A stretch of 63,839 nucleotides of DNA, filler included, from Kipferlia bialata (taxonomy: Eukaryota): assembly GCA_003568945.1 (NCBI GenBank). It is 5 parts of 5 records of this genome, joined end to end, with 100 filler letters (N's around TTAATTAATTAA, not from the genome) between each part and the next. Parts side by side here need not be neighbours in the genome. Positions count along the whole stretch, not along the records: positions 33,337 to 49,884 come from BDIP01000594.1; 4 more parts are not named here. One strand, 5' to 3'. A program made the translations under genes and the position numbers. Shown piece by piece: positions 4,809 to 50,053 of the stretch (its first letter is position 1; each line of letters begins with the position of its first letter). Below the pieces are notes generated by a model. It saw nothing but the letters and a program-made list of their open reading frames with translations, did not search any database and had not been told where the DNA came from.

Positions 4809-4859
<51 letters not shown>

Positions 4860-5515
4860 CCATATTCTAATTATTAACCCTAGGTGGCGGTGTCTTCACC
4901 CAGAAGGACCATGTGGATGACCATGAGTGCGAGGATGCAGTGCCACTGATACACGTTCAGGTGTGTATATAGATATAGTATTTATACTATATATATATAT
5001 ACTTAGTGTATACTATGTAGTGTTGTCTTCAATTTGTACAGTACCGCACCCCTCTTTATTCTTACCTTACCACCAGGCCGGCAACCTCCTATGTCCCTAC
5101 CCATCACCCACAATCATCGGGGGAGACACAGGTACATAGAGTGTATATATAGAGTGTATATATATGTGTATACTAGTACATACATATGAAATATTCAACC
5201 TCCTCTGCCCCTAACCATCACCCACCATCATCGGGGGAGACACAGGTATGTATAGTGTGGATATCATCTTGTTTTCACCAGAGCACATAGATATATGTAC
5301 TATATAATATATGAATAGTATAAAACACTATATACTGACCTCAGGTAGTGGTGAATGGGACGACACCGCCACCCTCGGATGTATAGAGCACATAGATATT
5401 ATAAGTATACTATACTATAACAATGTGTATACTTTATAGTACTAATACCCAGGAAGCGGTGAATGGGACGACACAGCCACCCTAGGGTGTATAGAGCACA
5501 TACCCCTGACTATAG

Positions 5516-5546
<31 letters not shown>

Positions 5547-6181
5547 TACTAACCTATAGGCAGCACTGAATGGGACGACACCGCCACCCTCGGCTGTATA
5601 GAGCACATTGATATTATATATATATCCTATACACACTGACCTATAGGCAGTGGCGAGTGGGATGACACAGCGACCCTTGGGTGCATAGAGCATATAGACA
5701 TTATAAGTATACTATACAATATATATATATTATAGTACTAATACCCAGGAAGCGGTGATTGGGATGACACAGCCACCCTAGGCTGTATAGATCACATGGC
5801 ACTAGTAGTATTATATATAATAATAATATGTATATATATACAGTACTATACTAATGTACAGGCAGCGGTGATTGGGACGACACTGCCACCCTTGGGTGCA
5901 TAGAGCACATGGCAGCCCTGGCCCCATGCATCAGTGGCATAGGATACATGGAACTATGCTATGGACTGAAGGTATATATATAGTGTATATATATATATAT
6001 AGTATGGCAGCCCTGGCCCCATGCATCAGTGGCATAGGATNNNNNNNNNNNNNATAGTATGGCAGCCCTGGCCCCATGCATCAGTGGCATAGGATACATG
6101 GAACTGTGTTATGGACTGAAGGTATATTATATAGTGTATGTCTATATATATATGTATATACTCTTTCTGTCATCATACTCC

Positions 6182-6227
<46 letters not shown>

Positions 6228-9200
6228 GTATCTACCCTCAGGGCGTTGTGGACATGTGGCCTGACACACTCTTTGTGGCATCACGGTCTCTCTCCGTCTC
6301 TCTCTCTCTTTGTATTCTTCTCTGTATATGTGTACTATATACATGTCTTACTCTAGGGTGTAGTGGACATGTGGCCGGACACCCTCTTTGTGGCATCCAA
6401 CCTCAGGAGCAGCAGAGTCGCCATGTCAATGGTAAGCAGTGCATATATGTATATGTGTATGTATATACATGTATATGTATCTGTATACAAAAGTATCCAA
6501 CCTCAGGAGCAGCAGAGTCGCCATGTCGATGGTATGTATGAGGATACCTATCTCTCTCTCTCTCTCTCTCTCTCTCCCCCTCCATATCTCTGTCTCTCCC
6601 TCTGCACCTTTATTAACGGAGAAGGAGGAAAGAATATGAATAATATATAAATTGCTCGATACATGTATATATATACATACCTCACCCCCTAGGCCATGGA
6701 GAAGGAGGGCAGGCGTCGGTGGGGAGTGCCAGAGGCACCGCCATGGCAGGTATATTGCTTATTGTCAGTACATATATATATATATTATATATATATATGT
6801 GTGTGTGTATGTATGTATAATTCTGTATTGTGTTCTTTTGGTGGGTAGTGCCAGAGGCACCGCCATGGCAGGTAGGGACAGATATATGTATATGCATACA
6901 CAAGTGTAATATCAATATGGCAGGTATATATAATAACTGCGCATATTGTCAGTATATATATACATATATACTTATATATATATATTTCTAGATTCGGTGG
7001 GGAGTCCCCAGAAGCACCGCCCAATCGGGTATGGGCAGATCTTCATTTGTCAGCAAGTTATACCTCCTTGTGTTTACTCACTCTCCTTCTGGAAGGTGGT
7101 GATGACAAGGCCGATCCCCCCCCCCCCTCTCTCTCTCTATGTATATGTGTATTATTTAGTACATATCCCCAGGAGGGTGATGACCACCGGTGTCTCCCTC
7201 TGTCTCTCTGTCATTGGACTTCAATTATGTATAATGTATCTTAATATCATTCACATCCAGGAGGGTGACGATGACAATGCCGACAAGTCCCTCAAGCCAT
7301 CGGCCTCTGCCACATCACTGGACCTGGGGGTGGATGAGGTATATAGTGTAGCATATAGTGTATATAGTATTATGTGTATTGTATAAATAGTATATGTAGT
7401 CATATAGGTATTAGTGTATTACAATAGTGTTTAGTAGCCTTCAGCCTCTGCCACATCACTGGATCTGGGGGTGGATGAGGTATATATATATATATATATA
7501 TTGTATATAAGTATAGAGTGTATTGTGTATTCTATATGCATTAACTATCTGCCACATCACTGGACCTGGGGGTGGATGAGGTATATATATATATAGATTG
7601 ATGTATATAGTATATGTGTATATGGCTGGGTGTATTAGTATATATGGTATATACATTGTCTAGCCATCGGCATCTGCCACATCACTGGACCTCGGGGTGG
7701 ATGAGGTATATATATATGTATGTATATAGTATACAGTATCTATAGTGCAATGAGTATATAGTATACTCAATGCATTATCAAGCCATCGGCATCTGCCACA
7801 TCCTTAGACCTGGGGGTGGATGAGGTATATACTGTAGCTTATAGTGGATATAGTATAATGTGTATAGTGTAAATAGTAGATGCAGTCATGTAGCCATAGG
7901 TATTTGTGTATTACTATAGTGTATAGTGTATAGAGCCTTCAGCCCCTGCCACATCCTTAGACCTCGGGGTGGACGAGGTATATTCTGTGTATTGTATATA
8001 TTTATGTATATGCATGGTATATGTACCACTGGATCTATACATACACCATCTAAATCACCAGATTCCCCTCTCCTCCAAGTGGGTAGGGGGTGATGACTGT
8101 GTTGCCTATCCATGTATATACTATATATATACTATATATATATGTCTAATACCAGATCCTCTTGTCCTCCAAGTGGGTAGGTGTTGATGACTGTGTGGCC
8201 TAATATATAGTATAGATATAGTATAGATATACCACCGTATATATATGTATATACTCTTCGTCTAATACCAGATCCCCCTCTCCTCCAAGTGGGTAGAGGG
8301 TGATGACTGTGTGGCCCAATTATAATACCACTGTATATCTTTCAATATATACAAGTGTCCCGCTGTATATATACTATTCATCTAATCCACCAGATCCCCC
8401 TCTCCTCCAAGTGGGTAGGGGGTGATGACTGTGTAGCCGTATAATATACCATTGTGTATAATATACCATTGTGTATAATATATATATATATATGTATCCC
8501 TGTATATATCTATATGCTAGTCTAATACCAGATCCCCCTCTCCTCCAAGTGGGTGGGTGGTGATGACTGTGTGGCCTTGTTGGGCTGTGAGAACGTCAAC
8601 CCTAACATCCCAAACGTCTACCACTTCCTGCCAGTGCTGCACAGGTATCATTGCTCAATAATTATGTATGTATATATGAATGTATTTATACAAGTATCAG
8701 AGTATATTAGTGTATACTACTATATATACTAGTATATACTATACCCTAAAGACTTCCTGCCAGTGCTGCACAGGTATCAGACTCTCTTGACACACTATAC
8801 ACCCATTAAGCCTATATTATTCGGTACTATACAAATATATCCATCTGGGTCATTCTTCCCTCACTTATATATTCCTGTTCCTCTGTGTACTTCCCTATAT
8901 TCACTGTTAGGAAGTCTGCCACGGTTACTGTTGTCCTGTCATGTCTCTTTGTTAGTATATTATACTACATATCCAGTATTACTGAATAATGTATACAGTC
9001 ACTCACTATTAGGAAGTCTGCCACCGTGACCGTTGTCCTGTCCATGCTTTACTATATATATATATATATATATATATGTATACATCTATATATATATATA
9101 TATATGTATACATCTATATATATATATATTCTGAATATATAATTAACAGTTGGATCTATCCTTGTACTCATGCGTAGGAAGTCTGCCACCGTGACCGTTG

Positions 9201-9407
9201 TCTTGTCTATGTTATCACAATGTCATCGTATACAAACTCTGGTTATTTCTATACCTTGAACTTACTTTAATAGTATGTAATCATGAGTCTATTCTCACCC
9301 ATAGGAAGTCTGCCACGGTTACTGTTGTCCTATCTCTGTTGAGCCCAGACATACCAGCCATAGACACAACAACCATGCCAGACTATTCAGGTATACATAC
9401 ATGTATA

Positions 9408-9444
<37 letters not shown>

Positions 9445-12400
9445 AGTGTATTGGCTATGAATGGTATTCTACGCTATGGTCCAGACATACCGGCCATAGA
9501 CACAACTACCATGCCAGACTATTCGGGTACAGTGTGGTGTTTACAATAATATTCCATCATGGTTCATTCAACAACATTCACAGTCATATGTACTGTTCAG
9601 GTATACATGGACCGCATTCATTATAGTATCTGGTGTCATTTATTCACTCACATCCAGGCAACGTGACTGCCCCGACAGGGGAGTCCATCGGAGGCACCAA
9701 CGAGTTCTGCCAGGTATTGATACCACACCAGCCTCGTAGAATAGTTATGCACATGTCTCCAAGTGTAGAAGTATTGTTAGTATCTTATACAAGGTCGACC
9801 CCACCGGTGGAGATGTGTTTGAGATCACTAGGAGGGCACTCCTAGGCACAGTCACGATGCTAAGTAGGCTGGGACTGGAGGTCAAGGGTATGGGTAGCAT
9901 ATATTGTATACTATATGTACATACTAATGTACTAATGCACTCCTGGGGACAGTCACTATGCTCAAAAGACTAGGGCTGGCTTATATGACACTAATATTTA
10001 CCAAAAGCGCTTGTGTCGTGTCTGACACTGTGACATATATACACATTTGTCATAATTGCAATGTGCATGTAGTGCATGTATACATATCTGGTGTTCTGCT
10101 CCTGTCTGGCAATGTGATCTCAGCCGATGTCATTTAATATTCATATGGAATTTTTTTAACATTGTATATGTATATCTGTATATATGTGTATTCATCTTCC
10201 TGACATTAGACTTTGGTGTCCTGTTCCTGTCTGACAATGTGATCCCAGCCGATGTGATAGCAGACATACAGTTCCTGAGGCCTAGCTTAACAATGGGAGT
10301 GCACGTGCTTGGGAGGTTTGTATGTGTATATATGTATTCATATACCATACTATATGCATTTCCTAAGGCCGCACAGAGCGATTACAGCACTAATGCTAAT
10401 ATTGCTTGGCGTGGTTTTGCATATATCCATTGCTGACCCCAGGTACAGTGCCCTCAGCAGACGGTCCAGGTTCTACATGATTGAGAGTGGGCACTACACG
10501 AAGGTGTGACATGTACTATTTTGAATCTATAGTATATATATCTAGTGTATATTTGAAAATTGAATCTATAGTATATATTGTACTGGAATGAATACCCTCT
10601 CACCGCCTAGGCCGATCAGCTAGCCATGCATGCCCTGAGTGACATTAGTGTACATGTATATATAGAGAGAGTATATGTATAGTATATGTATTTATATTCT
10701 TATCCTCCTTCATCCTAGGCTGAACAGCTGGCCATGCATGCCCTGAGTAACATTAGTATATATATATAGGTGTGTGTGTAACTCGATTCACACATATATG
10801 TCTCACCCTAGGCCGAGCAGCTGGCCATGCATGCTCTGAGTGACCTCAGAGTGTGTGAGGCATTCGAGAGAGGTATGTATATATACAGGGTACCACAGTG
10901 TATATGTGGTTAGTATATATGGATACAGATAGGTATAGTGATAGGTAATGCCCTGAGTGACCTCAGGGTGTGTGACGCATTTGAAAGAGGTATGTATATA
11001 TATTTATATATACGAATATATACGTATATGATATAGGATATGATGGGGGATAGTGAATGCTCTCAGTGACCTCAGGGTCTGTGAGGCATTTGAGAGAGGT
11101 TTGGAGTGATCTACATTATTGCACCATCTCTTTCTGATATGTTCCCTTACCCCTCAGGCATCGACATGCACCACAAATCCTGACACACTGTGTATATTGT
11201 GTATATAACCACTATATCAATTTATGTATATATATATATATGTATATATATATGTCTCTGACCCCCTCAGGCATTGACATGCACCACAAGTCGAGGTTCC
11301 CATTCCCTCCATTCCTGGCACCATACTCTGCTAAGGTATATATATATATATGCAGGATGTAGCATTCAATGACATAACACTATATATTCTTGTATATATA
11401 TATATGCTATCTCTGAATACCCGGCTGATGTCTCTGAGGTATGATACCTATATTTTCCATATTTACACCATATATATACTCGATACCATCTTATGTATAT
11501 TTAGTGTTCTATATGTATTGCTCTCTCTACTATATTTATTAGTATACATATGCTATCTACTCTGACCCCCAGGGTGATGTCACTGAGGGCGAGAGAGACG
11601 GAGCACCCTGTGAGTTCAGGTACATAATAGAGTATAATATGTATATTATATAGTATATGCATATACGAGAATGTAAGTGTATACATACAGAGAGGGACGG
11701 TGCCCCCTGTGAGTTCAGGTACATCTCCGTGTATAGTGTGTATTTATGAATTTCGATACATTTCTTTCATTGTGTTTTATCCTTTAGGAGCAGTGGCCTC
11801 CGCACCCCCTCCTTCGTCGTTGACACCTACTCTGACACACACCCTCTTTCTATCTGCATATATAGTATAGTTTCTAGTATTGCACAATCTCATAATAGGA
11901 GCAGTGGCCTCCGCACCCCCTTCTTTGTGGTGGACACATACTCTGACACTCCCTTCTCTCTCTCACTCTCATATATATATACGTAAATAGTATATGTACT
12001 GGTAATTCCTTATATCCAGGTCAAGTGGTCTTCGCACCCCCTCCTTTGTGGTGGATACCTACTCTGACACCCCCCTGTCCACCACCAATGACCCAGACGT
12101 GTCATCACCATACATGGTGGTGGCCATACCCACTATTAGAGGTAGTTATATATATTCTAGAAGTCAACATATGCTGAGTGTTTTCAACACATAAATGATT
12201 GACTAATCCCTTACCTCCTAGCCTCTGGCTCCAGTGAATCCATTGACGGCATCATTGTGTGTTTACCTGTATTGTTTGTACACATGTATACATATTAGTA
12301 CTCATTCCAGCCTCCGACAGTGATGATGCCCTTGACGATGTCAACACCCTGATATGTGTATATACCAGTATACTCATATATATAGTGTAAATGAATTGTA

Positions 12401-12464
12401 AAAGTGAAGTATTGACTCCCAGCCTCCGACTCCGATGCCCTCGATGACATCAATACCCTTACGC

Positions 12465-12501
<37 letters not shown>

Positions 12502-31599: not shown

Positions 31600-32539
31600 T
31601 GCCAGAGGCATACGTCCACACCTGGCTGTCGACACTGGGGTTCGGGTTCGGGGCTGTCCAGTCCTGTCATGATGTGATTATGATTCGAGACGACCTCTTT
31701 GTGTGTGTTAAGTCAAAAGGTACAAATGTGGTAGCAACACATGGTTTCCTATAGGTCCATATACGTTGCGTACTTGGACTCTGCCTCCTTGCTCGCTGAT
31801 ATAGTTGCCAGTGTTCTCCTTCATAACAATAATTGTTGAACAATCATCCAGTCCTTCTATACATACACATTCCCACTGCTGCTTCTGACTCAGGGTCTCG
31901 GTCGCACCATGGGTCTCTTGTTCTGTGGTTCGAGACAGAGGAGGTACGGTTATGCATATCTTCAGCGCATTCTCCCTCATGTGATGTATGGTATATATAC
32001 CACCCATTCTCCAATGCAATTGGCGCCTCCTCCAGGTCCTTATATTATGTGTATATGCCCTGACACCAGGGCACCCCCTGCACATACAGTGAGTGGATAA
32101 GTCAGTATCAGTACTAGTATCAGTATAGATAGTGTAAATACTGACATTGATACTGATACTGACACCAGGGCACCCCCTGCACATACAGTGAGTGGATCAG
32201 CTCCGGGAGGTCTGTGACGCAGCCTGTCAAGGTGGAGTCAGACCTGATTCGCAAGGGTGAGAGGCTGCTTTGGTATTGCTATCACTGGTACTATATATAC
32301 CGTATATTGTGAGTTGACCCTGTCTCCGACACCGTTTCTGATACTCAGCTGGCAAACAAGGAAGGCCAAAGCATGCGAAGAGTGGCGGTGTGTGCATCCG
32401 GTTTGTGTACCAGGGCAGCGACCACTACTCCAGCGCCACCATCACCAACCACCTAGTGCGAGTCCGAGACGTGACCCTCAACATCGTGCCCCTCACGGCC
32501 CTAACCCTATCCACCCTGCCCCCCGAGTGCACACCATGA
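31600..32539 (+). CDS. Putative short multi-exon protein of unknown function
   Basis: In-frame exons GSRSHHGSLVLWFETEE|GTPCTYSEWISSG...LIRK|AGKQGRPK...CIRFVYQG...PPECTP*, with an acceptor echo near 32070. Start uncertain. Confidence 0.45.
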
Positions 32540-33235: not shown

Positions 33236-33335
33236 GNNNNNNNNNNNNNNNNNNNNNNNNNNNNNNNNNNNNNNNNNNNNTTAATTAATTAANNNNNNNN
33301 NNNNNNNNNNNNNNNNNNNNNNNNNNNNNNNNNNN
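33236..33335. other. Artificial contig linker
   Basis: N-run + TTAATTAATTAA + N-run. Confidence 0.98.
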
Positions 33336-33628
33336 NTTTGATTCCGCCATAAGTAATTCAGACTGACAACTGGAGGATATCCCCCCCCCCCCCTCTCTCT
33401 CTCTCTCTCCCCACCCACATCCCCACCCACATCAGCTCTCTCTCTATAGATCCCAGTATTCATGCAAGTATCCTCTCTCTTTCTCTCTCTCTCTCTATCT
33501 AACTAGAGATACAGTTTCATTTCCAACTTACCCCAGATCCCAGTCAATGCAAGTCCCAAAGTTAGGACTGCTCTCTCTCTCTCTCTCTCTCTCTACATAC
33601 ATCATTGTATTTCTCCCTCACACAACAG

Positions 33629-36600
33629 ATCCCAGTCAATGCAAGTCTCGCAGTCTTAGAGCTGCCTTACATCCTGACACAGCGAGGAAGTTCTATGAGG
33701 TGGGAGCATGCATACTACATACACACTACATACTCTATCTCTCTTGCCAACTCACTATCCCCCCCCCCTCCCCCACCCATTTACCATGCTATACACTTAT
33801 CATTTCTCTCGTGTTGTTATATATACCCGTCACTCGCTGTCATTTTTGGTTGTATATACCCTCTCTCAGGTTATTATTATACTCTTTTCTATCAATTCTA
33901 TATATTAGATGTATTTGTGTGTTCTTGAGAATGGTTTTACACCACTAGGTAGTGTATTATCTTCTCTCTCACTCTCATTATTATACTGTTTCTATATTAT
34001 ATATATATTTAGTATATATGTTATACTATATTGAATATTTGTATATTCAATATAAGTATGTACACTCACCGACAGTCGGTGCCTGCACCAGGGGAGGACG
34101 ACTGGCTCAGGATAAGGGAGGTATATATGTATCATACATACTATGTATGTGTATAGTATACTATTTATACACTGTATATGTATGCTACCCATATACTAGG
34201 CATAGGGGTAGATGACTGGCTCAGGATAAGGGAGGTATATATATACACTATTATATATATATATAGTATTCATTAATATAGTAATATGGTAATATATGTA
34301 GGCTGTAATAGAACTTCTACTATGGAATATATCTCTACCTCTTTACATACCTGTATCCACCGCTAAGTCCACCAGGAGAAGGGTCAGACCTTCAGTCAGT
34401 ACAAGGCCAAGTATAGGTGGGAAACTCTTGATATATAGTAATAGTATTGGTGTGCAGTTATGTACTGGTAAAGTAACTGTATTCGTTCTACCACTAATGT
34501 GCCGAGTGTTTGTATAGTGATACGAAGAGCAGTTGTTTTCCCCTATCCTGACCCTTCTCCCCCTATCTTCCCCTAACGCACAGAGGCAGGCTCTTGTGAA
34601 ATATATTCTCCAATTGTCATGCTGTCAAACTATTAGTGAACTCTCATTCTCTCTCTCTCTGTCACAACATTGTAAACATATATTCTCATAAGACTCAATT
34701 AGCCTAACTGACAATTAGGCCGCTGAAGAAGCCGGCCCCTCCGATCCTAATCATACCTGCAGTGTACAGAGGTCTAGACAGTGATAGTGAGGAAGAGAGT
34801 GAGGAAGAGGGAGAGGGAGAGAGTATGGGTGGGGGACTTGATCCACAAGCAGTGGTAGGTTGGTATATCTACATTCATTGATTGATTGATTGATTGATTG
34901 ATTGGTATACAACACAGACCGTGTTACACAGGTGTCTATTCTGTTCATGATAACCATCTCTCTACTTTTGTATCTTCCTGTTAATTCATATTCCCCTCTA
35001 ATTTACCAGAGTACGTACGTGCCTTCTACTACCCCTGTCCGGTAGTGCTACTAGACACCCTGGACCTGAAGGTAACAGAACAATCACCACTCATACTCAA
35101 TAATTATAATGAGTAATGAGTATGATAATGCTCATTGATAATACTATGATCAGTAGTTTACCCATTTTCTGATAGGAGTCACTAATAGCTTCATATATTT
35201 GTTGGCTCTTGGGACTGACCCCTAGCAACACAGGGTCAAGATGAGGGACAATGATGGGGACACCCAGTTCTATGCACCGGAGATACTGAGGCACTCAATA
35301 CTGTATAGCACTATATATATATATTCTCTCAACCATTTAGAAGTGTCAAGTCGGTCCCCTCTTGCAGACAGTACAGTGCAATAGCTCTAACGTAGAGCCT
35401 CTAAGAGTCATTTGGTGTAGTATATCCATGTAACATATACTAGTCTTACCCTTAGAAAGGTCAAGTCTATCCTCTCTGGCAGACAGTACAGTGCAGCAGC
35501 AGTCATGACAACACACGACATATACCACAGGTATAGTATATATAGTAAATATAGTAAATAATGATACTGATAGCATGCAACTGTTTCATATTCTTTCCGT
35601 ATGTATTGGATAGTGTGTATTGGTTAATATAGGTGACATACACCACAGGTACATACAACTGATAGTATATTAGCATGCTATCTCATATTGACCTTGTGGT
35701 ATTCGATTATCAGGGCTAGAGGTATCGGTCTGGACCAGGCATATTTCACTCTCTGTAGCGACATAGTCTCTACCTCTAGCCACATATTCTCCAGAGAGGA
35801 CTGGAACTATATACTTGGCCTAACCCATAGTCTCACCTTATAACCCCTTCTTGTCTCTCTCTCCTTCTAGCCCCTTACTTGCAGAGAAGACTGGAACTTT
35901 GTCTTTGGCCTGGCCCAGGGTGGTGTATCCATATTCTCTTTCTACCGATTTCTGCCATCATTCACTGGTGCTCCAGAAGTGAAACATCCTAGAGGTTAGT
36001 AATATTGCCGTAAATGTATACAGACTGCCAAAAGATCATAATACATGACTTGCAACATATACTGCTCGACCTTCACTCCTACCTTCTAGTTTACTTACTT
36101 ACCCCCTAGATGTCACTCTGTGGAGGTCTGTCCGCACAGCAGTGCACGAGCTGGGTCACTGGTAAGGATACATACTATTGTGTGTACCGTACGTCTGGTG
36201 TGCTCCATGCCAATATAGTCTTTGTCAATAACAACTTGAGTGCCCAGTATCCTCACCCCCCCAGCCTTGGTCTCCGGCACTGCATATACTACAAGTGCAT
36301 CATGAATGGATCAAACCACATAGGTGAGCGGTTCATGTGGATATAGTGACGTCACTCTACTGGAAGGGTGTCTTGAAGGGCGACGGTCTGCTATCTCTCT
36401 TTCTCTCCTAACCAACAGACGAGTCTGACTCCCGACCCCTCTCTCTATGTCCAGTGTGCCTGAGAAAGGTACATACATCACCAATGGTGATTTACCATAA
36501 GTACATTGTATGTCAAGCGAATATAGAGTACAGTATGAGAGTTGAATACGAAGTGCCATAGTACAGTGGATATGTCAATACACTGATTCACTTGTCTCAT

Positions 36601-36955
36601 AACAGGTATTGACCTGTGTCTCTTAGTATTTTGTATGTCTCATAACAGGTGTCACACAGACTAGGCGGAGGCGTGTTGACTCGCTATAGGGGAATAGCAG
36701 GTATGTCGAGATGTAAGTTTTGCTTCTCCATATATACTAGTAATACATTGAGTGTGTGTCATTTATTACTCGTCACTTTCACAACTCACTTCTGTTCCTA
36801 TTCCAGAGATTGTTAATATATATATGTGTATACTATGTATATATACATAGAACACAATATCCAACCTTATTCCAGAGTGGTACAGAGTCCATGGCTTCAC
36901 CGAGCAGCTAGAGAGATGTGAGGCAGTCATCAGGCACATCGAGGGCAGCAAGTAG
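33629..36955 (+). CDS. Archaemetzincin (peptidase M54, AMZ2-like) zinc metalloprotease; 5' end missing
   Basis: Spliced motifs: PAPGEDDWL..EKGQTFSQY, YVRAFYYP, THDIYHREDWNFVFGLA, AVHELGHCLGLRHCIYYKCIMNGSNHIDESDSRPLSLCPVCLRK (HEXXHXXGXXHCX4CXM...CXXC); stop TAG 36953-36955. Confidence 0.93.
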
Positions 36956-37958
36956 TACAATTCCATGCAGTGCTACCATTTCTTACGCGAAAGAACAAGG
37001 AGAATGTTGCATCGAGGGCAGGATGTAGGCACTCGCCTCGTCATACACTCTAAAGAGCCTATCTAACATGTACTTTTAGAATGGAATAGAGTGAGAGCAG
37101 AGTGGAGGCAGTCATCAAGCACATTGAGGGCAGGATGTAGTGTCTCATTATTGTCCCTCTCCTGAGCAATGATAGTGAGTCTGACATCAAGCACGTCGCA
37201 GGGTGCATGTTGCCACTTGCCTAGTCAGATTTACTATCTGGAGGAGACTTTGTGTAGGGTATAGAGTCACTCTATTCCCACCAGATAGTCAAATATAGGG
37301 TGAGAAATGAGAAGTGAGACATCAGGAATATAGAGGCCAAGATGCACAATTCTAAAGTGGACCACCATCATTTCTTTGAACTTCAAAGATCTGTTCTCAA
37401 CATACAAATGAGAACTTCAATTTCCACTCTTGTGAAATAGTGTCTGAGGCTGTCGTCTAGAAGTTCTAGACTATTACATAGAGGGAAGTATGTAGTTCCT
37501 TCCTATTGTTCGTACTTTCCTCAGCAACGCACACAGTGTAGTGTTACCCTCTGTATCGTGGTGGAGTAAGACTAGGCTTTCAGCACTGTTGTTAGTGTAT
37601 ATAGGATCACAAATTGTGACACAATCCATATTCTAACACATTTGAGTATAGGAAAGCTTCCGGGTTATATCATGCCCATTGGGCAGTACTTGAAAGAGTT
37701 TGCAAGTTATCAATGTTGAAATCAATAGATCAATGTACTAGGTGGACACTGTCCCTAGTAGGGACTCCCTACGGGTTATCTAGTTCTGCTGTCAACCCTG
37801 CCACAGGCCAGTTAGTGTGCCCTCTAGGTGTCGGTGCAGATTCTCTCTCTATCAGCATACTGACATATCCCAAAAGCATTTGAATTGAAAACATGCAATC
37901 TATTCCTTTCAGAGCTGAGTACGTTGTGCGGTCAGTATCGGTTCAAACTGTGACTTAC

Positions 37959-38389
37959 CATGGCATACACTCCCCCATCATACCCTCTTCTCATGGGGGG
38001 TGTCGGGACAGCAGCACGAGGCAGCGCCCACCTGGCAGTAAGAAGGAGAGAGAGGAATGAAGAGAGAGGGAGAGAGGTGAGACCCAGTTCATCAACGGCA
38101 TGGCAAGCAAGACGCGGCGCACGCACACATATATACAAAAACATGCACATATATCTATAAATACACCGATGTGTATCAATGTCAATATGTATCATATGTG
38201 TACCTATACTCATTTCCCTAGGTGTCTGAGTGATGGATATATATACACATGCACCTATCTATCTATACGTATATACGTATCCAATGAATACCTGTACTCC
38301 TCTCCATTGGTGTCTGAGTGGTGGGGGTAGAAGAGCTCGGGGTTCATCCGCAGGATCAGTCTAGAGTTAGAGACATAAGGGTCCAAAGA

Positions 38390-38433
<44 letters not shown>

Positions 38434-39507
38434 AGAAGAGGGGTTATCCGTAGGATCAGTCTGGTGTTAGAGACATAAGGATCTAAATGAGAGAGAGAGA
38501 GTAGAAGATGGTGTTAGACATGAATGAACACATTCAGACTATTAGATGAATTAGATACAATTTGACACATTGGAGACACATGGGTCCAGAGAGTGAGAAA
38601 GAAATAGCAAGAAGAGTCACTTGATGTTGCAGGACGGCTGCGTCTCTTTATTGCGCTCTGTCTCTCTAAACATACATCTATACGTATAGAGTATGTACCT
38701 GTTGTTGCAGGACCGATTTGTCTCCATCTCGTAGTCATTGACACTCATCATAAGGGAGTGGCAGCCAAAGGGAACAAGGTCCCTAGTGTGAGTATACATA
38801 AACACATAGATGAGTATATATATATATACATAATGAGAGAGAGAGACACACTCATCATAAGGGAGTGGCAGCCAAAGGACACAAGGTCCCTAAGCGTAAG
38901 AGGAGAATAGTATATATATTTGAATGATACATACTAAGTACTCTGTAGAGATTTACCCTACCTGCTGTGCATGCTCTTAATATCCACTGATCGTATACAC
39001 ACATATATATATATGTGTGTGTGAGAGGGAGTTCCATACACTAGATATAGAAATATCTATCTATATATACATACTCAATATATACCTAGCCATCTGCATG
39101 CCCTTAACATCCTCCCCCAGAGGCATGTAATCTATCCTAACAAATACTAGATATACACTTTAATACTATATACTAGATACAAGTACATATAGACTCTCTA
39201 TAAGTATAATATATTATATATACCTAGCCATCTGCATGCCCGTGACATCCACCCCAAGTGGCATACCCTCTATCCACACACCCTGCACGGTGTCATAGAC
39301 ATGCAGGGTGGGATCGGCACCTAGAGTAAGAGATAGAGAGACAGAGTAAGAGAGAAAGGGAGAGAGAGAGAGAGAGAGACCCTGCACGGTGTCATAGACA
39401 TGCAGGGTGGGATCNNNNNNNNNNNNNNNNNNNNNNNNNNNNNNNNNNNNNNNNNNNNNNNNNNNNNNNNNNNNNNNNNNNNNGGAAGAGATACTTATAT
39501 AATTATC

Positions 39508-39541
<34 letters not shown>

Positions 39542-42119
39542 GACATGCAGGGTGGCGTCTGAACCCGAAATGAGGAAGAGATATTAATATATATCTAGAG
39601 AGAGAGAGAGAGAGAGAGAGAGTCATAGACATGCAGGGTGGCATCTGAACCCGAAGTGAGGAAAAGACATATATATATATATATACACAGAGAGATAGAG
39701 AGAGAGAGAGACCCGGCACTGTGTCTATGCAAGGTGGCAGGGGTCTGATACATACACATATGGATCCATATATATATGGAGATATATATATATACCTGCC
39801 ACTGTGGTGCATAGTCTCCCAATAATATATGTGTATATACATATATATCATATCAATATATATAATGATATATATATATTTACATATAGTGAGAGCGAGA
39901 GAGAGACAGTCTTGTACCTGCCACTGTTGTGCATAGTCTCCCAATGATGTATGGGCCGATTGGCACAAGGGTGGAGGGGGGCTGGTGGTAAGTGTATATA
40001 TGTTCAAGTATATAATACATATGTCTATATGGAGATGAGAGAGAGAGAGAGAGAGATGGGCACTAGGGTTGAGGGGCCTGGGGCTTAATTACTGTATACT
40101 CATGGGAAGAGAGAGAAAGACAGAGAAAGAAAGACAGAGTGAGATATATTAGTGATTCCGTATTTACGGTGGGCAAGTCAATGTATACTCATATACATGG
40201 AGAGAGAGAGAGAGAGATACCTGGTGGGCAAAGGGACCAGTTGTGGCTAGCTGGGTGACACCATTCCTAGGGTCAGTCAATTCCTTATTCACGTACTATA
40301 TCTTGAATACATATGTGTACACATACCTACTGCTGTACAGCCAGTGTGACACTCCCTTTCGGTCACTCTCTAGGAACAGGTGCATGGAGTCCTCACAGAC
40401 ACACACCTAGGGGTCAGATACATACACTTCAACAGTGCATACTCATATATGGTAACATGTATTAGTATACAAATATGACAGAGAGAACAGGTGCATGGAG
40501 TCACCACAGACACAGACCTAACTGTCAGAGGTGTGTATATATAGGCAGGGTTTTTATACGTATAACACAGTATACTCTAGGAACAGGTGGATGGAGTCAC
40601 CACATACCCATACCTAGGGGTAAGACATATATATGGATACATAGACACACACTTAAGAATACTTCTACAAGTACTACTTAGACGGATAACTCTGTGGTCG
40701 CGAGACATGTATTATTATATACAAATAATAGCGAACGAGAGACTCTCGTGTTGAGTGGCTAGTGAGCGCACGTAACCAACTGATATGGCAACTGGCTATT
40801 ATACTGCTATCAATGGCCGTACCGAGCATACTCTCGTGTTGAGTGGGAGTGCCATGTCTGCCTTGGTCCAGCGGTGCGTGTCGGGGTCCATGCACCAGAC
40901 CTGATGGTTAGATGTATATACTATATATACTATATGACACATATATGTACAGTATGTATGTCATAGAGTATGTGTTGTGCCACAGTGCACCACACCTGGT
41001 TGTTAGATACGCAAACTACATATATACATCCATATATTTCGTTGTATACATATACTATAGTGACTAACCTCTGTCTGTTCCTTGTCGCTATAGGCAGTCT
41101 CCTTAAGCTTGCCGAATACCCAGAGCTGGGGTAAGGAATCCAATATGATAGTATTCATACGTACTAAAATATATACAAATACAGTATAATACTATGCATA
41201 TATATATATGCCAAAGACCCAGAGCTGGGGGTAAAGGACACACATACATGGATGGAGGCAAGAGACGCAGAGACGTGTCTCCATATTGTGTGTCACATAC
41301 ATATATGTACACACATTTACTACTAGATATACCTAATCCTCGTACTATGCCACCTTGACACCAATGTATAGATCAATAGTACATGCATATTTACAAACAG
41401 TACAAAATAGTATATATACCTATATATATATATATATATAGAAAGAGATAGGGAGATAGATAGAGAGAGAGAGAGAGATAGTATACCTTGTCATCAAACG
41501 CTGCCCCCTTGACACCTATCTGTTCATATAGTATGTTGCAGTATATTGTATGTATGTAACCACAGTATATATGGATGAACACACACCTTGTCCTCGAAAT
41601 CTTCCACCTTGATCCCCAGGTCACTCATGGCTGGTGGCCACAGACCCTTGTCCAGATCACCCTCTGCTAGTGTCAGGTATATAAGTATACTCCTATGATC
41701 TAGCGTATACATACACATCAATGTTTAATGTGGCAGATATGAGTGGTAGTATGTACACTATATATATATATACATATACACTATGGATGCACCACCTGGT
41801 ACCACCTCCGCCCGAGAGTGTATTATTAATATATGTATACACTCGATATATGTATATATTCTCTCTATATACATATAGTACCATATATGCCTCACCTGGT
41901 ACCACCTCCTGCCACTCACCAAGGGCCAGGTCATACTCTATATATACATACATACATATATACTCTAGATCATATATATATATATATATAGATATATATA
42001 TATACTACATATATACACTACACCCCTCACCTGGTACCACCTCCTGCCACTCACCAAGGGCCAGGTCATATGATAGAAGGGCATTCCTGAGTTAGATCAT
42101 GGTATATATATATGTATGG

Positions 42120-42153
<34 letters not shown>

Positions 42154-45100
42154 CAGAGACAGAGAGAGAGGGCCAGGTCATATGATAGAAGGGCATTCCT
42201 GAAGATAAGGAGGAGTTAGGTAGAGATATATACATTCCTGTGTGTAAGGACAAGGAGATATATATATAGAGATAGACAGATAGTGAGTGCGATAGAGCGC
42301 TATTCTCAGGCCGTATCCTGATACTTACACTATTTTAAACTAATGAAGCGAGGGAGAGAGGGGGAGAGTCCTTACATCTCCAATACATATATATATATAC
42401 ATACATATATATATAGAGAGAGAGACTGCTTGCCTTATGACATCTCTGGGGTTGTATGTTGGCACCATCCCATTGGGCCCAGATCTGAAGCCCCTGACAC
42501 CCCTCTCCTCATCTGACTTGGACATGTCCTCGACCTCGGGTTAGTATACATATATATGTATGGTTGTACACAGTAGACATAGACATACCATATGTATATA
42601 TATGAATATAGATCTAGTAAATACAAATATGCAGCATAGCACTACACCGCTAACCTTCCCTCCAAACACATAGACCCTCCCACAGCATAGTACAATATGG
42701 GGGATACATATGTGTAGAGTAGTATATATGTTGGATATGGTTATATGGTGTACCTTCCCTCCAAACACATAGACCCTCCCACAGCAGTGGACGCCCTCGA
42801 GACCCACCGCCTGAGTGTCAGTGTCATATATAGATATACACATAGCTATATAGTATCTGTATCATATACATACATATATATACACTAGTCATATACCCAC
42901 TAGTGCAAGCCCTCTAGACCTGGGTGTCAGTGTCATACATAGGTATATATATGAAAATTGTGTAGATTGAATATTAATACAGTATAATACCAGTATCATA
43001 TATATATATATCTAGTCTAGTGCACGCCCTCGCCACCTAGTGCCTGAGTGTCAGTATATATATATGTATGTATACATATGTGTATATGTATACATATACT
43101 GCCCAGTCTCTGACTCAGGCCGGTATGCACGGGTATATCCAATTGTATATATATGTATATACATAGTATATTACACCTGACACAGACCAGGGTGCACAGG
43201 GATAGGGTCACAGTGCAGCATGCGGTGGGTAGGGGTACTAGAGCCTATACTGGTGAGGGAGACGATGCCTACTGCCTAGAGTGAGTGAAGAGGGTAGGGG
43301 GTGAGACCGTACTGATCTGGGGGGACACTCATCAGTTTTAAATCGAAGTATGTAGAGGGAAGGATAGAGGAAAAGAGAGTGAGAAGTTACCTGAAGTGGC
43401 TCGTCAGTGTGCATAAGGGGTGAAGGGAGAGGCAGAGAGAGAGAGAGAGAGAGAGTACTGACCTGCGCTGGCTCGACCGGGTCAGTGGGTCTCTGGAACT
43501 CCTTGGGTCTGGGGGCCTAAGGTAAGTAACCCTTGTATATATATTTTATAGATAGTAAATGACTTACTAAATTACTCTATGTATAATACATTACCCTAGT
43601 AACCATGAACAGTGACCCATCAAGGAGTGCACACACCACAGGCGTCAGTGATATTATAATTATTCTATATACAAATGTATTACACTATACAGTTCTATAT
43701 ACAGTATATATAGTATAGTATATGTACCCTTCTAACCATGAATATACTACCGTCAGGCAGTGCACACAGCACAGGTGTCAGTGATACTATTGTATCTTAC
43801 TATAAAGCAAGTACTAAGTATAGTGTTGATTGTCTATATAGTATATATACTCTTTGTGTACCCTGGTAACCATGAAGAGTGACCCGTCAGGGAGTGCACA
43901 CAGCACAGGGGTGAGTGAGTGGTTGATGACTGGGTCACAGTCAGAGAAGGTGGCATGGGTGTCGATGATGTGAGAGACCCAGTTCGCCTAAGTTAGTAGG
44001 GTATGGATATATACATAGAGAGAGAGAGAGATACTATCTGAGATTGACGTATGGGATGTATGTATATATATGTATATATATATGAGACCCACTAAGCCTA
44101 ACATGCTAGTATCTCTCTATGCGATATAATGGAAGACAGAGTCCCTAACGTAGTATACCTATACAGTTAACGTAGTATACCTATACAGTTAAAAGAGTAT
44201 AAGGGTGTCTAACTGGTGTACCGTATAGTACAGTGGATATAGTACATAGTATAACGTCAACTGTGTCTAACCTGCTGTGTAGCGTTGGCTCCCGCTGCCT
44301 TGCACTGCTCCTCGTGGTTCCCTCTCTCTCCCTCTCCCTTTACCTCTCCCTCTGTCTCTGCAGCGGCACCGTCTCCATGCACCAGGTGGTAACCCACACC
44401 CTCTTCCGCCTAGCGTGAGGTGTAATAAAGAGTTAGTATGAAGGTAAAGGCATATATATATATATATGCCTATTAATTATACCCTGCTAAGGTACCATAT
44501 AGTGATACATATACATTGATAGTCTGTACAGTGATACCTCATACAGGGCATAGCACCTGCACCCCTCTAATGCAGTACTATATAGAAGAAACACTTAGTA
44601 TTATATACTATACATACATGCTAGTAGATACATATATATATATATATATATATAGATAGATAGATATAGTGATACCTCATACAGGGCATAGCACCTGCAC
44701 CCCTTTGTCGCACACTCTAGCCTGTCGGGGCCTGGGTTAGTATATATATATATGTATATATGTATATACTCTATATATACACAACATACACTATATGTGT
44801 ACTATATACGTATCACTCTGTGGCACACTCTAGCCTGTCGGTACCTGGGTTAGTGTGATATTCAATATTCATATGTACAACATATACTATATGTGTACTA
44901 TATATGTACTTATCTTATGCACACTATAGCCTGTCTGTGCCTGGGTTGGTATATATAATAAAAGATATATATGTACTATAGTATATCTCTACACCATATG
45001 TTTACAATACCGTAAGTATATATGAATACATTGAATGCAGATCATATATGTGGGTGGGTTAGTATGTATATGTATACATTGTGCTCCAGTGAGCAACCAA

Positions 45101-45388
45101 TACTAACATAATAAGAATACATACATTTATATACACAGACAAACACAGATCTACACTACTAATATTGAACATAAATGTATAATCGTAACTCAACAATATA
45201 TCTCCTACCTTCAGGTCTCCAGTCTGAGCCTGATCTCTCGTACATGGCACACACCAGGGCATGCAGGGTGGGATAACGGTAATTGTACAACTAGGGTTAA
45301 TTATCATAGAGAAAGAGAGAGAGAGAGAGAGAGAATACCAGTGCATGCAGGGTGGGGTAGAGGGGGCCATATAACTAGTGGTAAGGGG

Positions 45389-45419
<31 letters not shown>

Positions 45420-46075
45420 CAGTCATACACCTGAGATAAGACAGTGAGAGTGGTCCACCTTCTGTGTAGGCTGACCCCAAAAGAATATACACACGCTTAT
45501 ATATATGTGTACGTATACTCCTCTCTAGGTACGCAGATAGATACAAAGAAGACATGGTGGAGTAATTGTATATCATACATCGACCCACCCCCTCTGCCAG
45601 ACCAGACACCTCTCTCGGCACCACTGTCTGCTGACGGGTAGCGGCGGCATCCATGTCCCTACTATTAAGTATAATACATAAGTAACACAAACAATAAAGA
45701 ACTAATACATATATATAGAAATAGTGCAATAATCATACACTATACTATTCTCCTGACGGGCAGCGGCGGCATCCATGTCCCTATCACTTAGCTATTAAGT
45801 GTAAATATTTGTATATATATTACATTAAGTATCCAAATAACAAGTATTAGACGGGCAGCGGCCTCCTGCATATCCCTACCATAAAGTATATCTTTTAAAG
45901 ATTTATCATATAGTATCTATATATACGTATTCCTAATATTTAATACTATATATATATATATTATTATTAAATGTATTTACTGAGTATTCATAATGACAAT
46001 TGCAACTCTACAACACAACACATAGATACCGGTACCTCTGCATGTCCATGTTGCGCTGCATTAACTGCTGGATAC

Positions 46076-46106
<31 letters not shown>

Positions 46107-46473
46107 CCTATATATATATATACATATACCTATTGCGCTGCATTAACTGCTCGAGCTCAAGCATCTGGGCCTGGATACCGGCATCAAACGCTGCATCACT
46201 CACACCGCCAAAGAAGTCATCCCCGCCGCCCATGCCCTCTCTCTCTCTCTCTCCCTCACTGAAGCTGTCGCTCTCACTCCCGTCTCTCAGACCTGGCTCA
46301 CATGGCCAGCCGGAGAACTGGGTAAAGCCCTCTCTCTCTCTCTCGCCTCCATCGCGCCAGGCTCTGAACCCACCCTCCTCTGCCTCCATGGCTTCCATGT
46401 CGAATAGGACGTCCTGAAGATCAGTATATATACAGGATTACATTTAAATATACACGAGTATATACTATATTAT

Positions 46474-46510
<37 letters not shown>

Positions 46511-49370
46511 GATACACAAATATATTTGTCATACCTCACCCATATCCATTTCTCCAAAGGCCGCGTCACAGGCATGGTCCATGATCTCTCCTAGAGTATC
46601 AATCACACAGTATCGACAATAATTGATACATGGTAATATGGTAGTTTATATACTATATATTGTTAATAATAGTAGTATAAATATGGAAGCATCACAGGCT
46701 TGGTTACTATACTATATATAGCATTAAAGTACCATAAGATAAACCACAAGATAGTCCATCTTCATTAAGATGGCTAGATTAGGCATCAGGTGTGTACAAT
46801 ACATGTGAATGGTTCCAAGACAAAGTATAATATATTCCTGTATATGGGATCTACCTATGAGTGCAGTGTCGACAGAGCTTACTATATATATGAAAATATA
46901 CACATTCTATGACATATACCTATGTGCTATGTAGAACATTCATGAATGAGATAGTATATTTACACATGATACGCACCTATGAGTGCTGTGTCGACAGAGC
47001 TGGGGGGTAGCTTGTACCGAGTCTCAACCTGATGGGTTAGGATGGACAATGGATACGTATGAATATATATATATATCTGTAGAGAGAGAGAGAGAGAGGA
47101 CCTCAACCTGATGGATCAGAGGGAATATACCAACATATACATATCTGTGTGTTTGCATATATATATATATATATATACTCATTACGATAGTACAATTTTA
47201 CTCGACATGCGAGCCTGAACCTGATGCATCAGTAGAATATCTATTACTATGCGATTATAGAGATACTATTATAGAGATATTATTATGAGAATAGAGAGAG
47301 AGAGAGAGAGAGAGCTAAGGTCCCAACTTGACGTTTCAGAGGGACTCATAAAGACAAGCAACCACAGATGATACTATAATACCTAGCTTGAATGAAGAAT
47401 AGACGATTATTACAGATAAGACAGATAACACATCATATAGTATATATACAGTACCTCACGGATCAGAGGCTCTACATCCATCTCGATGTCTTCCTCATCC
47501 TCGTCAGCAATGGCAGCCATGCCTGGTTGTTAGTATATTGTACACATATATATACGTGTGTGTATGTATATATATATAGACAGGTAGGAGTACACGTGTC
47601 ATCCTCGTCACCCACAACAATGGCAGCCATGCCTGGCAGTTAGTACACAGCCTAGTTAACTAATGGTACATGAACGTATGTATACATATGTTTGACATCA
47701 ATGGCAGCCATGCCTGTGCGTTAGTGTACTGTCGTCATACACACAAATATATATATACATATACATAAATATATATACCTCTGAGCTGCAGTGTGAGACC
47801 CTCCCTGAGACAGGTGAACAAGTCAGTCTTGAACTGGTCCAGGCCTAGGGTTATCTGTACACTATACTGTATACATGTCAATATACTGAGCTATTCAAAA
47901 CTTGCTATATACTGGTCCAGGCCTGGGGTTGTATATAACTAGCAATAAATAAACACTAAGCAATTCATACTAAGCTATTCACTGGTCCAGACCTAGGGTT
48001 ACTATACACACAAGATGAGTTGATATACTAGTATACATACGGATTTACATGTATATATATATTGAATATATATATACCTGCTGCCACGTCAGCCTCCCAT
48101 ATATGCACAAACATACAGTCAGGTACACATATATATACATATATACATATATACATATGTACCTGCTGCCTCCCCTGCCTCTGGGTCACCCTTACATATA
48201 TACATAAACATACATATATATATACATATATATACATATATACATAAATATTCATATATATATATATATACCTGATGCCTCTGATCCCTCCCCTGCCTCT
48301 GGGTCAGCCTGCCAGTCCCTGAACTGGGGTGGGTATATACGATACTGAGTATAGATATGTATAGTATAGATATAATATGATAGAGAGAATACACGCTGCC
48401 AGTCCCTGAACAGGGATGAGTGCAGATATCATGCATATATAGTATATATATATAGAGAGAGAGATGATATGTATTATATATATATATGTAGAGAGAGATG
48501 TTACTTATTACATAAAGCCAGTCCCTGAACTGGGTGAGATGAAGAGTGGATACATATATATACAATATATAGATATATAGATAGAGAGAGAGAGTGTAGA
48601 GTGATATATATGTGAAGATAGTAGGAGAGATGGGGAGAGATGGAGAGATGGAGAGACAGAGAGGATGAGAAAGAGAGAAATACAAGGGAAATGATCGGTG
48701 TGGGAGGGGGGAATAATAATGAGTATATACAAAATAGAGAGAGACAGCGAAACACATGGGGAATGCACACATATAGAGATTAAGAGAGAGAGTGTGTGAA
48801 AGAGAGAGAGTGAGAGAGAGAGTGGGATATCAGATCAGCACACAAGATGGAGAGAGAAAACCTACCTATTGGATTATTACATGTGGAGAGAGAGAGAGAG
48901 AGAGAGAGTGAGTGAGTGTACGCAGAGGGAGATAGTGCAAGAGAGAGAGGTACCTTGGTCAGAAACCGACATATGGCAAAGACACTACCATATCAATATC
49001 AGCCAATATATGTACACAGAGAGAGAGTAAAGAGAGACAGACAGAGGGAGAGAGAGAGAGTTAGGTAAGTGCACCTTGGTCAGGTGGCGACATGGCATAG
49101 ACCCCAGGCACCATGAACAATATTAATGTCTGAATATACATGGAGAGAGAGAGAGAGAGACAGAGAGAGAGTGTGTGTTAGATGCACCTTGGTCAGATGC
49201 CTACACATGGCATAGACACCAGGCACCATCTCACCCATTAGGTCGACTTCGTAGTCCTCCATATCCTCATCACTCTCTCTCTCTCTCTCTCCCTCCTCAT
49301 CACTTTCCGTGGGAGGTCTCTTGGGGTCGGTTGGTACCACCGGAGCAGTCATCAAGAGGAGGGGATGCAT
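37959..49370 (-). CDS. Multi-exon protein with acidic N-terminal region and C-terminal Kelch-type beta-propeller repeats (possibly more than one gene; 3' end approximate)
   Basis: Start [10 protein letters not shown] at 49370. Kelch-like exons [45 protein letters not shown]; late exons [15 protein letters not shown]. Dense exon echoes in the introns. Confidence 0.6.
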
Positions 49371-49883: not shown

Positions 49884-49983
49884 GNNNNNNNNNNNNNNNN
49901 NNNNNNNNNNNNNNNNNNNNNNNNNNNNTTAATTAATTAANNNNNNNNNNNNNNNNNNNNNNNNNNNNNNNNNNNNNNNNNNN
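49884..49983. other. Artificial contig linker
   Basis: N-run + TTAATTAATTAA + N-run. Confidence 0.98.
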
Positions 49984-50053
49984 NTTTTTTATTTTTTTTA
50001 TCCCCCCCCCCCCCCCCCCCCCCCTCCCCCCTTTCCCTTTCCCTCACCCCCAG

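What the first reader, a model, noticed from the sequence alone, without database searches (positions are those of the whole stretch)
36920..37350. Echoes of a terminal exon downstream of the stop codon
Seen: the archaemetzincin end GAG GCA GTC ATC AGG CAC ATC GAG GGC AGC AAG TAG is echoed at ~37009, at 37105-37140 (GAG GCA GTC ATC AAG CAC ATT GAG GGC AGG ATG TAG, stop kept in frame), and more decayed at ~37183 and ~37318. There is no splice donor here and the spacers are not microsatellites. Inference: echo formation is a DNA-level process acting at coding/non-coding boundaries in general, not only a splicing device. This constrains the models above.
Basis: partly seen in the sequence, partly recalled or inferred. 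Interest (0 to 1): 0.7.

Follow-up and report, generated by a model that had tools for sequence, protein, structure and literature searches.

The report
Exon relics behind a stop codon
Five decayed copies of a gene's last exon follow its stop codon in the protist Kipferlia, and most introns nearby hold similar half-exon copies that differ from the working exon mainly at silent codon positions, so they are likely relics of former coding sequence pushed aside when DNA breaks were repaired from a diverged allele.

Summary
The echoes are real, and there are five, not four (37010, 37080-37140, 37171, 37302, 37476). The gene is a Kipferlia bialata archaemetzincin. An exon-only contig matches my 13-exon model to the base and runs unspliced through the first three echoes, so these lie in the 3' UTR. 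Echo 2 is a frameshifted whole-exon copy with its acceptor, and post-stop flanks were copied too, so the process acts on DNA. The larger result lies in the introns. 44 of 72 hold half-exon echoes, which differ from their exon at third codon positions (243 of 333 mismatches, dN/dS 0.12; a neutral duplicate gives about 0.5). In 7 of 15 exons the 5' echo ends where the 3' echo begins. Echoes therefore diverged mostly as coding sequence. The best model (0.5) is break repair or unequal exchange between strongly diverged alleles that match only in exons. The codon signal in the 3' array alone is weak (15 of 28, p 0.02). No second allele was available to test the model.

The parts
33629..36955 (+). 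Archaemetzincin (Peptidase_M54, HELGH) gene, 13 exons seen, 5' part cut by the contig end
   Evidence: Model gives a 299-aa frame identical to P0001, named Kipferlia bialata peptidase M54. Pfam PF07998 E 6e-12. The exon-only contig fits: last exon predicted and seen at record position 914.
36876..36955 (+). Working terminal exon, stop TAG at 36953-36955
   Evidence: Several homologs end within a few residues of this point (P0010 296/330 of 331 aa; P0012 297/328 of 328).
36956..37242 (+). 3' UTR, minimum extent, unspliced; holds echoes 1-3
   Evidence: Run X2 record 9, piece 36873-37242, 0 differences, 0 gaps. The contig end is not a transcript end.
37010..37028 (+). Echo 1: last 19 nt, stop kept; post-stop flank type B
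   Evidence: 17/19; flank resembles that of echo 3, p 0.005, 4 of 336 intergenic pieces score as high.
37063..37140 (+). Echo 2: branch-like CTAAC (37063), AG (37078-79), exon 5' part, net 19-nt loss (frameshift), then the last 36 nt with stop; flank type C
   Evidence: 32/36; acceptor part 12/15, gapped p 0.02; use of this acceptor would read another frame.
37171..37212 (+). Echo 3, decayed, stop lost; flank type B
   Evidence: 25/36; 11 mismatches spread over all codon positions.
37258..37385 (+). Echo 4, decayed (core 37302-37344), with a possible exon 5' remnant at 37258-37268 and a flank like the one behind the true stop (type A)
   Evidence: 23/36; flank p 0.003, 0 of 336 intergenic pieces score as high; the 5' remnant is weak (p 0.05).
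37446..37530 (+).
   Evidence: 15/19, 3 of 4 differences synonymous; flank p 0.004, 1 of 336; echo 2 and echo 5 are the best-scoring unit pair (59.5).
2174..16378 (+). Gene P0003 (35 exons seen) with intronic half-exon echoes, up to five per exon side
37932..49370 (-). Gene P0002 (27 exons, weak Kelch match) with intronic half-exon echoes
   Evidence: three exons confirmed by run X2 record 10 with 0 differences.

Best explanation
The five copies behind the stop codon belong to a window-wide pattern of exon-end copies that differ from the working exon mainly at silent positions, and they are likely relics of former coding sequence, displaced when a break inside the exon was repaired from a strongly diverged allele. 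Shown: the copies, their polarity, the copied flanks and the synonymous bias. Inferred mechanism: (1) alleles are similar only in exons, so strand invasion starts there; (2) synthesis runs past the exon end into the donor's unrelated intron or UTR; (3) the new strand is end-joined to the other break end instead of annealing, so the donor's exon end becomes the working copy and the old exon end is left beside it; (4) unequal exchange between exon and echoes multiplies copies that share one inner end; (5) selection keeps only harmless products, which are half-exons in introns and also whole-exon copies behind a stop; (6) echoes then decay and are lost.
For: Echo vs exon mismatches by codon position are 50/40/243 over 99 segments, dN/dS 0.12. 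d0/d4 is 0.113, bootstrap over 45 exons 0.074-0.172; simulated neutral duplicates put through the same detector give 0.48-0.52. Echo vs echo pS 0.34, pN 0.04. GC at fourfold sites is 0.61 in echoes, 0.59 in exons, against 0.37 for introns. A frame-free test shows the same 3-periodicity (1068/673/668, pairs not independent). Polarity is strict: 0 of 99 segments cover a whole exon; GT kept in 33 of 35, AG in 42 of 47. 5' and 3' echoes of one exon meet within 6 nt in 7 of 15 exons (2.5-3.7 expected, p 0.004-0.03). Only 5 of 146 local repeat pairs in the three genes lack exon-derived bases; 0 lie in 7,092 nt of other intergenic DNA. 8 of 15 informative site pairs are incompatible, as for mosaics. 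pN is lower in the nearest than the farthest copy in 14 of 18 untied families of 24 (p 0.015). In the 3' array all five echoes share Met at the last codon where the exon has Lys. Papers (passages): metamonads lack Ku/DNA-PKcs and rely on HR and alternative end joining (PMC8516963); in a hypervariable fungus crossovers fall in exons (PMC4209137, abstract).
Against: No second allele was seen. The DNA run shows no other letters over 6 kb, P0001-P0003 each have one cluster member, and the metagenome scan gave one 31% hit. The model needs synonymous diversity near 0.3, above the 14% between parents in PMC4209137. The codon bias in the 3' array itself is weak: 16 of 35 raw mismatches (p 0.09), 15 of 28 unique (p 0.02); echoes 3 and 4 show none; the three intronic echoes of this gene give 8/64 at zero-fold vs 3/13 at fourfold sites. 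Pooled pN does not rise with rank (0.040, 0.047, 0.039) and does not differ between exon-proximal and distal halves. At 3-nt tolerance the meeting of echo ends is 4 of 15 (p 0.03-0.09), and both-side echoes are not enriched (Fisher p 0.22). Incompatible sites may be repeated mutation. Sex or ploidy of Kipferlia was not examined.
Confidence: 0.5

Rival explanations
1. Echoes arise by ordinary tandem duplication within one lineage but keep exchanging sequence with the working exon (conversion, or deletion between echo and exon). Echoes carrying amino-acid changes are then purged because they damage the gene when they are swapped in.
For: Shared inner ends in families (27 of 42 acceptor pairs and 9 of 20 donor pairs within 4 nt); mosaic sites (8 of 15); 8 of 81 echoes of 24 nt or more are identical to the exon. 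It needs no foreign allele.
Against: Inference: exchange frequent enough to purge would also erase synonymous differences unless population size times mutation rate is very large, which again implies high diversity. It does not explain echo halves meeting at one point.
Confidence: 0.2
2. Echoes are, or were until recently, translated: the 3' copies as duplicated alternative terminal exons, the intronic ones as alternative exon halves joined by rare or non-canonical splicing.
For: Purifying-type divergence. Echo 2 has a branch-like site and AG. Stops are kept in echoes 1, 2 and 5. Complementary halves overlap by 1-3 nt in 4 of 15 exons.
Against: Echo 2 is frameshifted. The X2 contig reads straight through echoes 1-3, and X2 depth in that bin equals that one contig (30.9). 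All 8 X2 pieces listed match working exons with 0 differences. Only 12 of 47 acceptor echoes have a GT and 14 of 35 donor echoes an AG near the inner end. Contigs drop rare forms, so this is not exclusion.
Confidence: 0.15
3. Plain neutral tandem duplication: small duplications occur everywhere, only those that leave the reading frame intact survive, and the copies decay freely. The 3' array is one old case.
For: Copied flanks, decay of echoes 3 and 4 at all codon positions, no repeats inside 8,546 nt of long exons. It could hold for the 3' array alone, where the codon signal is weak.
Against: It predicts d0/d4 of about 0.5; observed 0.113. It predicts purely non-coding duplicates too, but there are 5 of 146 in genes and 0 in 7 kb of intergenic DNA.
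Confidence: 0.12
4. Assembly artefact: haplotypes or paralogs were joined in tandem.
For: Short-read assembly of a repeat-rich genome; differences look allelic.
Against: One 3,537-nt DNA contig at ordinary depth spans the whole array with 0 differences, and the exon-only contig reads through three echoes. Both runs are of one sample and may be the window's source.
Confidence: 0.03

Closest known systems
Internal (partial-exon) tandem duplication; intron gain by tandem duplication (PMC4974935, passages; Gao and Lynch 2009 seen only as cited there, not held)
   Same: Direct local copies that span an exon boundary and carry splice signals.
   Different: Here it affects 44 of 72 introns, creates no new intron that I could see, and the copies diverge like coding sequence (dN/dS 0.12) rather than neutrally.
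Tandem exon duplication giving mutually exclusive or alternative terminal exons (PMC9013439, PMC5740500: search listing and start of abstract only)
   Same: Arrays of exon copies with synonymous divergence; echo 2 has an acceptor.
   Different: Intronic copies are half-exons with one splice site only (0 of 99 whole); echo 2 is frameshifted; no use seen in the RNA-like contigs.
Templated insertions of alternative end joining / SD-MMEJ, and SDSA (PMC7407515, passages)
   Same: Insertions copied from DNA near a break, short junction overlaps, in a lineage lacking canonical NHEJ (PMC8516963, passages).
   Different: Those insertions are copies of the same molecule; most echoes are diverged at silent sites (8 of 81 identical) and come in arrays.
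Exon-restricted crossing-over in hypervariable Schizophyllum commune (PMC4209137, abstract)
   Same: Recombination confined to exons because flanks are too diverged, which is the premise of my model.
   Different: The abstract reports no exon-end duplications; hypervariability in Kipferlia is only inferred.
Silent cassette systems of antigenic variation (pilS, vls, VSG pseudogenes; recalled, from no call)
   Same: Partial, untranslated gene copies beside an expressed copy, with mosaic sequences.
   Different: Cassettes store amino-acid diversity in a few surface genes; echoes hold silent diversity in unrelated genes.

Membership tests
Neutral internal tandem duplication | Direct copy next to its source, spanning the boundary with flank | tested here: met
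   99 segments vs 2 hits in 450 null pairs; flank pairs.
Neutral internal tandem duplication | Copy diverges neutrally (d0/d4 about 0.5 or more) | tested here: not met
   0.113, CI 0.074-0.172 vs 0.48-0.52 simulated; inconclusive for the 3' array alone.
Duplicated alternative terminal exon | Own branch site and AG acceptor | tested here: met
   Echo 2 only; weak or absent for the other four.
Duplicated alternative terminal exon | Homologous reading frame from acceptor to stop | tested here: not met
   Net 19-nt loss shifts the frame.
Duplicated alternative terminal exon | Spliced to exon 12 in mRNA | tested here: inconclusive
   One contig reads through unspliced and no second contig covers the bin; contigs drop rare isoforms.
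Templated-insertion repair scar (SD-MMEJ / aborted SDSA) | Insert copied from DNA at the break, junction microhomology | tested here: inconclusive
   1-3 nt overlaps in 4 of 15 exons (p 0.03-0.09); within 6 nt in 7 of 15.
Templated-insertion repair scar (SD-MMEJ / aborted SDSA) | Dependence on alternative end-joining or HR proteins | not testable with these tools
   Only literature passages on pathway content.
Introner / transposon / dispersed repeat | One sequence family dispersed over many loci | tested here: not met
   Each echo matches only its own flanking exon (2 of 450 null hits, one microsatellite-like); the 36-mer has no copy elsewhere in the window.
Silent cassettes of antigenic variation (recalled) | Stored diversity is mainly amino-acid changing | tested here: not met
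   pN 0.04 vs pS 0.28-0.34.
Structured RNA element in a 3' UTR | Rfam match or unusually stable fold | tested here: not met
   0 Rfam matches at E up to 1; z -1.52, 4 of 100 shuffles as good.

The most novel reading that the evidence does not exclude
Kipferlia renews its exons by copy-and-displace repair from highly diverged alleles, so its introns and some 3' UTRs are built from stacked halves of former exons. One haploid-looking genome would then hold a fossil sample of past alleles, give direct evidence of recombination and extreme diversity in a fornicate, and show a route of intron growth that I did not find described.
Probability: 0.4. Interest if true: 0.88.

Novelty: new variant of a known kind. 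Interest (0 to 1): 0.72.

Why it matters
Non-coding copies that diverge like coding DNA should not exist under ordinary duplication. If the allele-capture model holds, a published draft genome with about 125,000 introns (PMC5874029, passages) contains a very large number of dated repair events and allele samples. These would make sex, diversity and break repair without NHEJ testable in a free-living relative of Giardia. In practice, echoes mislead gene models: the last annotated exon of P0003 is an echo.

Tried and rejected
No whole genome is held, so the genome-wide stop/start survey could not be run. Echoes at other stops: 9 of 10 had none; one 13-nt hit at 744 nt behind 50933 scored 10.5, within the null (50 of 479 random pieces reach 10). 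In one search four of 12 stop candidates were out of frame and one (20142) was not a credible gene end; two were dropped and three re-placed. Three of 8 start candidates had no valid frame and were dropped. No RNA holder was listed as RNA on record; X2 is treated as RNA because its contig holds exons only. RNA use of the P0003 echoes was not obtained. The metagenome scan gave one distant contig. The representative search gave only homologs of 45% identity or less among the best 150 besides P0001. Pfam on two single exons gave nothing. Rfam and folding were negative. A simple block duplication of the array does not fit the flank order A-B-C-B-A-C. cDNA origin is rejected: echoes carry intron ends, with identity above control for about 7-17 nt into the intron. 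Base composition or CpG as the cause of the third-position bias is rejected: all four bases show it, and non-CpG fourfold sites differ at 148 of 585. Nine paper searches listed no description of such echoes in Kipferlia; in the genome paper 'duplicat' and 'tandem' occur 0 times. Supplements were not read, and subscription papers are not covered.

Full report
Setting. The window is a string of contigs joined by N-linkers. Three exon queries each returned one protein named Kipferlia bialata, on contigs whose lengths fit the window's pieces. The finding lies behind a 13-exon archaemetzincin gene (33629-36955, +). My model gives a 299-aa protein identical to P0001, with Pfam Peptidase_M54 at E 6e-12. 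Several homologs end within a few residues of the same point, so the stop is a natural end.

Observation. The copies are real. Against 127,606 positions the last 36 nt score 32, 25, 23 and 22 at four places within 400 nt of the stop, while only two positions elsewhere reach 23 or more. The last 19 nt have their three best non-self hits at 37010, 37122 and 37477. The last of these is a fifth echo. A DNA contig spans 34913-38381 with no difference; that run may be the window's source. A 1,280-nt contig of a run guessed to be RNA holds only exons, places the last exon exactly where the model predicts (914 = 914), and continues unspliced to 37242. Echoes 1-3 are thus in the 3' UTR; echoes 4 and 5 lie beyond the contig's end.

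Anatomy of the array. There are six units (the working one plus five) of 72-148 nt. Echo 2 starts with a branch-like CTAAC, an AG and the exon's first 13 nt, then lacks a net 19 nt, so it is a frameshifted whole-exon copy. Post-stop flanks pair up as working/echo 4, echo 1/echo 3 and echo 2/echo 5 (p 0.003-0.005 among 15 pairs; 0, 4 and 1 of 336 real intergenic pieces score as high). The copied unit therefore crossed the stop into UTR, and units were multiplied and shuffled (flank order A-B-C-B-A-C). All five echoes have ATG at the last codon where the exon has AAG. Echo 5 differs at four sites, three of them synonymous. Over all five echoes, third positions take 16 of 35 mismatches (p 0.09), or 15 of 28 when shared variants are counted once (p 0.02). 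The three best-kept echoes give 8 of 11, a post hoc choice. No Rfam match and no unusual fold were found.

Is it general? In this window 1 of 10 stops and 0 of 5 credible starts have echoes, against 31 of 72 donors and 29 of 72 acceptors.

The intronic echoes. I mapped P0001-P0003 to the DNA (75 exons; 6 and 4 alternative chains exist for P0002 and P0003; I replaced the last annotated exon of P0003, an echo, with the open exon at 16286-16378). 44 of 72 introns hold 99 echo segments of a flanking exon; non-flanking introns give 2 hits in 450 pairs. Echoes of the upstream exon are its 3' end plus GT; echoes of the downstream exon are AG plus its 5' end; none is a whole exon. Median length is 35 nt and the maximum 63. 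Echoes make up 16% of intron sequence. Mismatches fall 50/40/243 on codon positions 1/2/3, dN/dS 0.12, and position 3 leads in 28 of 41 exons with variants. d0/d4 is 0.113 (0.074-0.172). A neutral copy beside a constrained exon gives 0.48-0.52 through the same detector. Composition and CpG do not explain the bias. Most of the divergence was therefore gathered under coding constraint. The effect is strongest in P0003 (0.026 vs 0.306), weaker in P0002 (0.055 vs 0.170) and unclear in P0001 (0.125 vs 0.231, few sites).

Geometry. Copies in a family often share their inner end (27 of 42 and 9 of 20 pairs within 4 nt). In 7 of 15 exons with echoes on both sides, the 5' echo ends within 6 nt of where the 3' echo begins (2.5-3.7 expected; p 0.004-0.03; weaker at 3 nt). 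This looks like an old exon split at one point with a complete copy between the halves. Purely non-coding local duplicates are rare: 5 of 146 pairs in these genes and 0 in 7,092 nt of other intergenic DNA.

Mechanism. Shown: copies, polarity, copied flanks, synonymous bias, and use of the working exons in the 8 RNA-like pieces listed. Inferred: a break in an exon is repaired from a diverged allele that matches only in exons. Synthesis overshoots into the donor's intron or UTR and is end-joined, so the donor's exon end goes to work and the old end is left as an echo. Unequal exchange then multiplies copies. Selection allows half-exons in introns and whole exons only behind a stop, which fits echo 2. 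Literature fits the premises: metamonads lack Ku and DNA-PKcs and lean on HR and alternative end joining (PMC8516963, passages); crossovers in a hypervariable fungus fall in exons (PMC4209137, abstract); SDSA and templated insertions are described in PMC7407515 (passages). Against: no second allele was found, the required diversity is extreme, and the age gradient is mixed (14 of 18 untied families, but flat when pooled). I put this at 0.5. Rivals are within-lineage exchange with second-order selection (0.2), present or recent use by alternative or non-canonical splicing (0.15), plain neutral duplication (0.12) and artefact (0.03).

Comparison and novelty. It works like internal tandem duplication or templated repair but fails the neutral-divergence test. 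It resembles duplicated alternative exons but fails the whole-exon and frame tests. It is not a dispersed element. Nine searches listed no account of it, and the genome paper's passages and methods do not mention it (PMC5874029); supplements and subscription papers were not seen. Two earlier scan notes report exon-end copies in other genomes, and the lines shown mention no synonymous bias (unchecked).

Verdict. The 3' array alone is modest evidence. Its value is that it removes splicing as a requirement and points to a strong and unexplained coding signature in non-coding copies. Interest 0.72.

Noticed in passing
window 15962-16378: The public protein P0003 ends in an echo copy (15962-16026) rather than the open exon at 16286-16378; echoes mislead annotation.
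   Followed up: partly
window 35291-35455: Intron 6 of the archaemetzincin gene starts with GC; the length of the RNA-like contig fits this GC-AG intron. P0002 also has one GC donor near 42433.
   Followed up: partly
window 37900-38031: The annotated end of P0002 (stop 37932) contains a donor-like site near 37960 and an acceptor-like site near 37917 on the minus strand; the true last exon may lie further on.
   Followed up: no
window 52946-60320: Two GC-rich minus-strand genes with very long exons (a 1,899-codon open stretch and a 427-codon one) have no local repeats, unlike the intron-dense genes with AT-rich microsatellite introns.
   Followed up: partly
window 60692-62422 and 22168-23062, 32060-32200: Further echo families in genes that I did not model; they were included only in the frame-free test.
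   Followed up: partly
window 16572-16671, 33238-33337, 49886-49985, 60324-60423: N-runs around a six-frame-stop linker join unrelated contigs; genes on either side are not neighbours.
   Followed up: yes
window 36593-36650 and 36795-36875: Short acceptor-only echoes (intron end plus AG and a few exon bases) upstream of exons 12 and 13 of the archaemetzincin gene.
   Followed up: no
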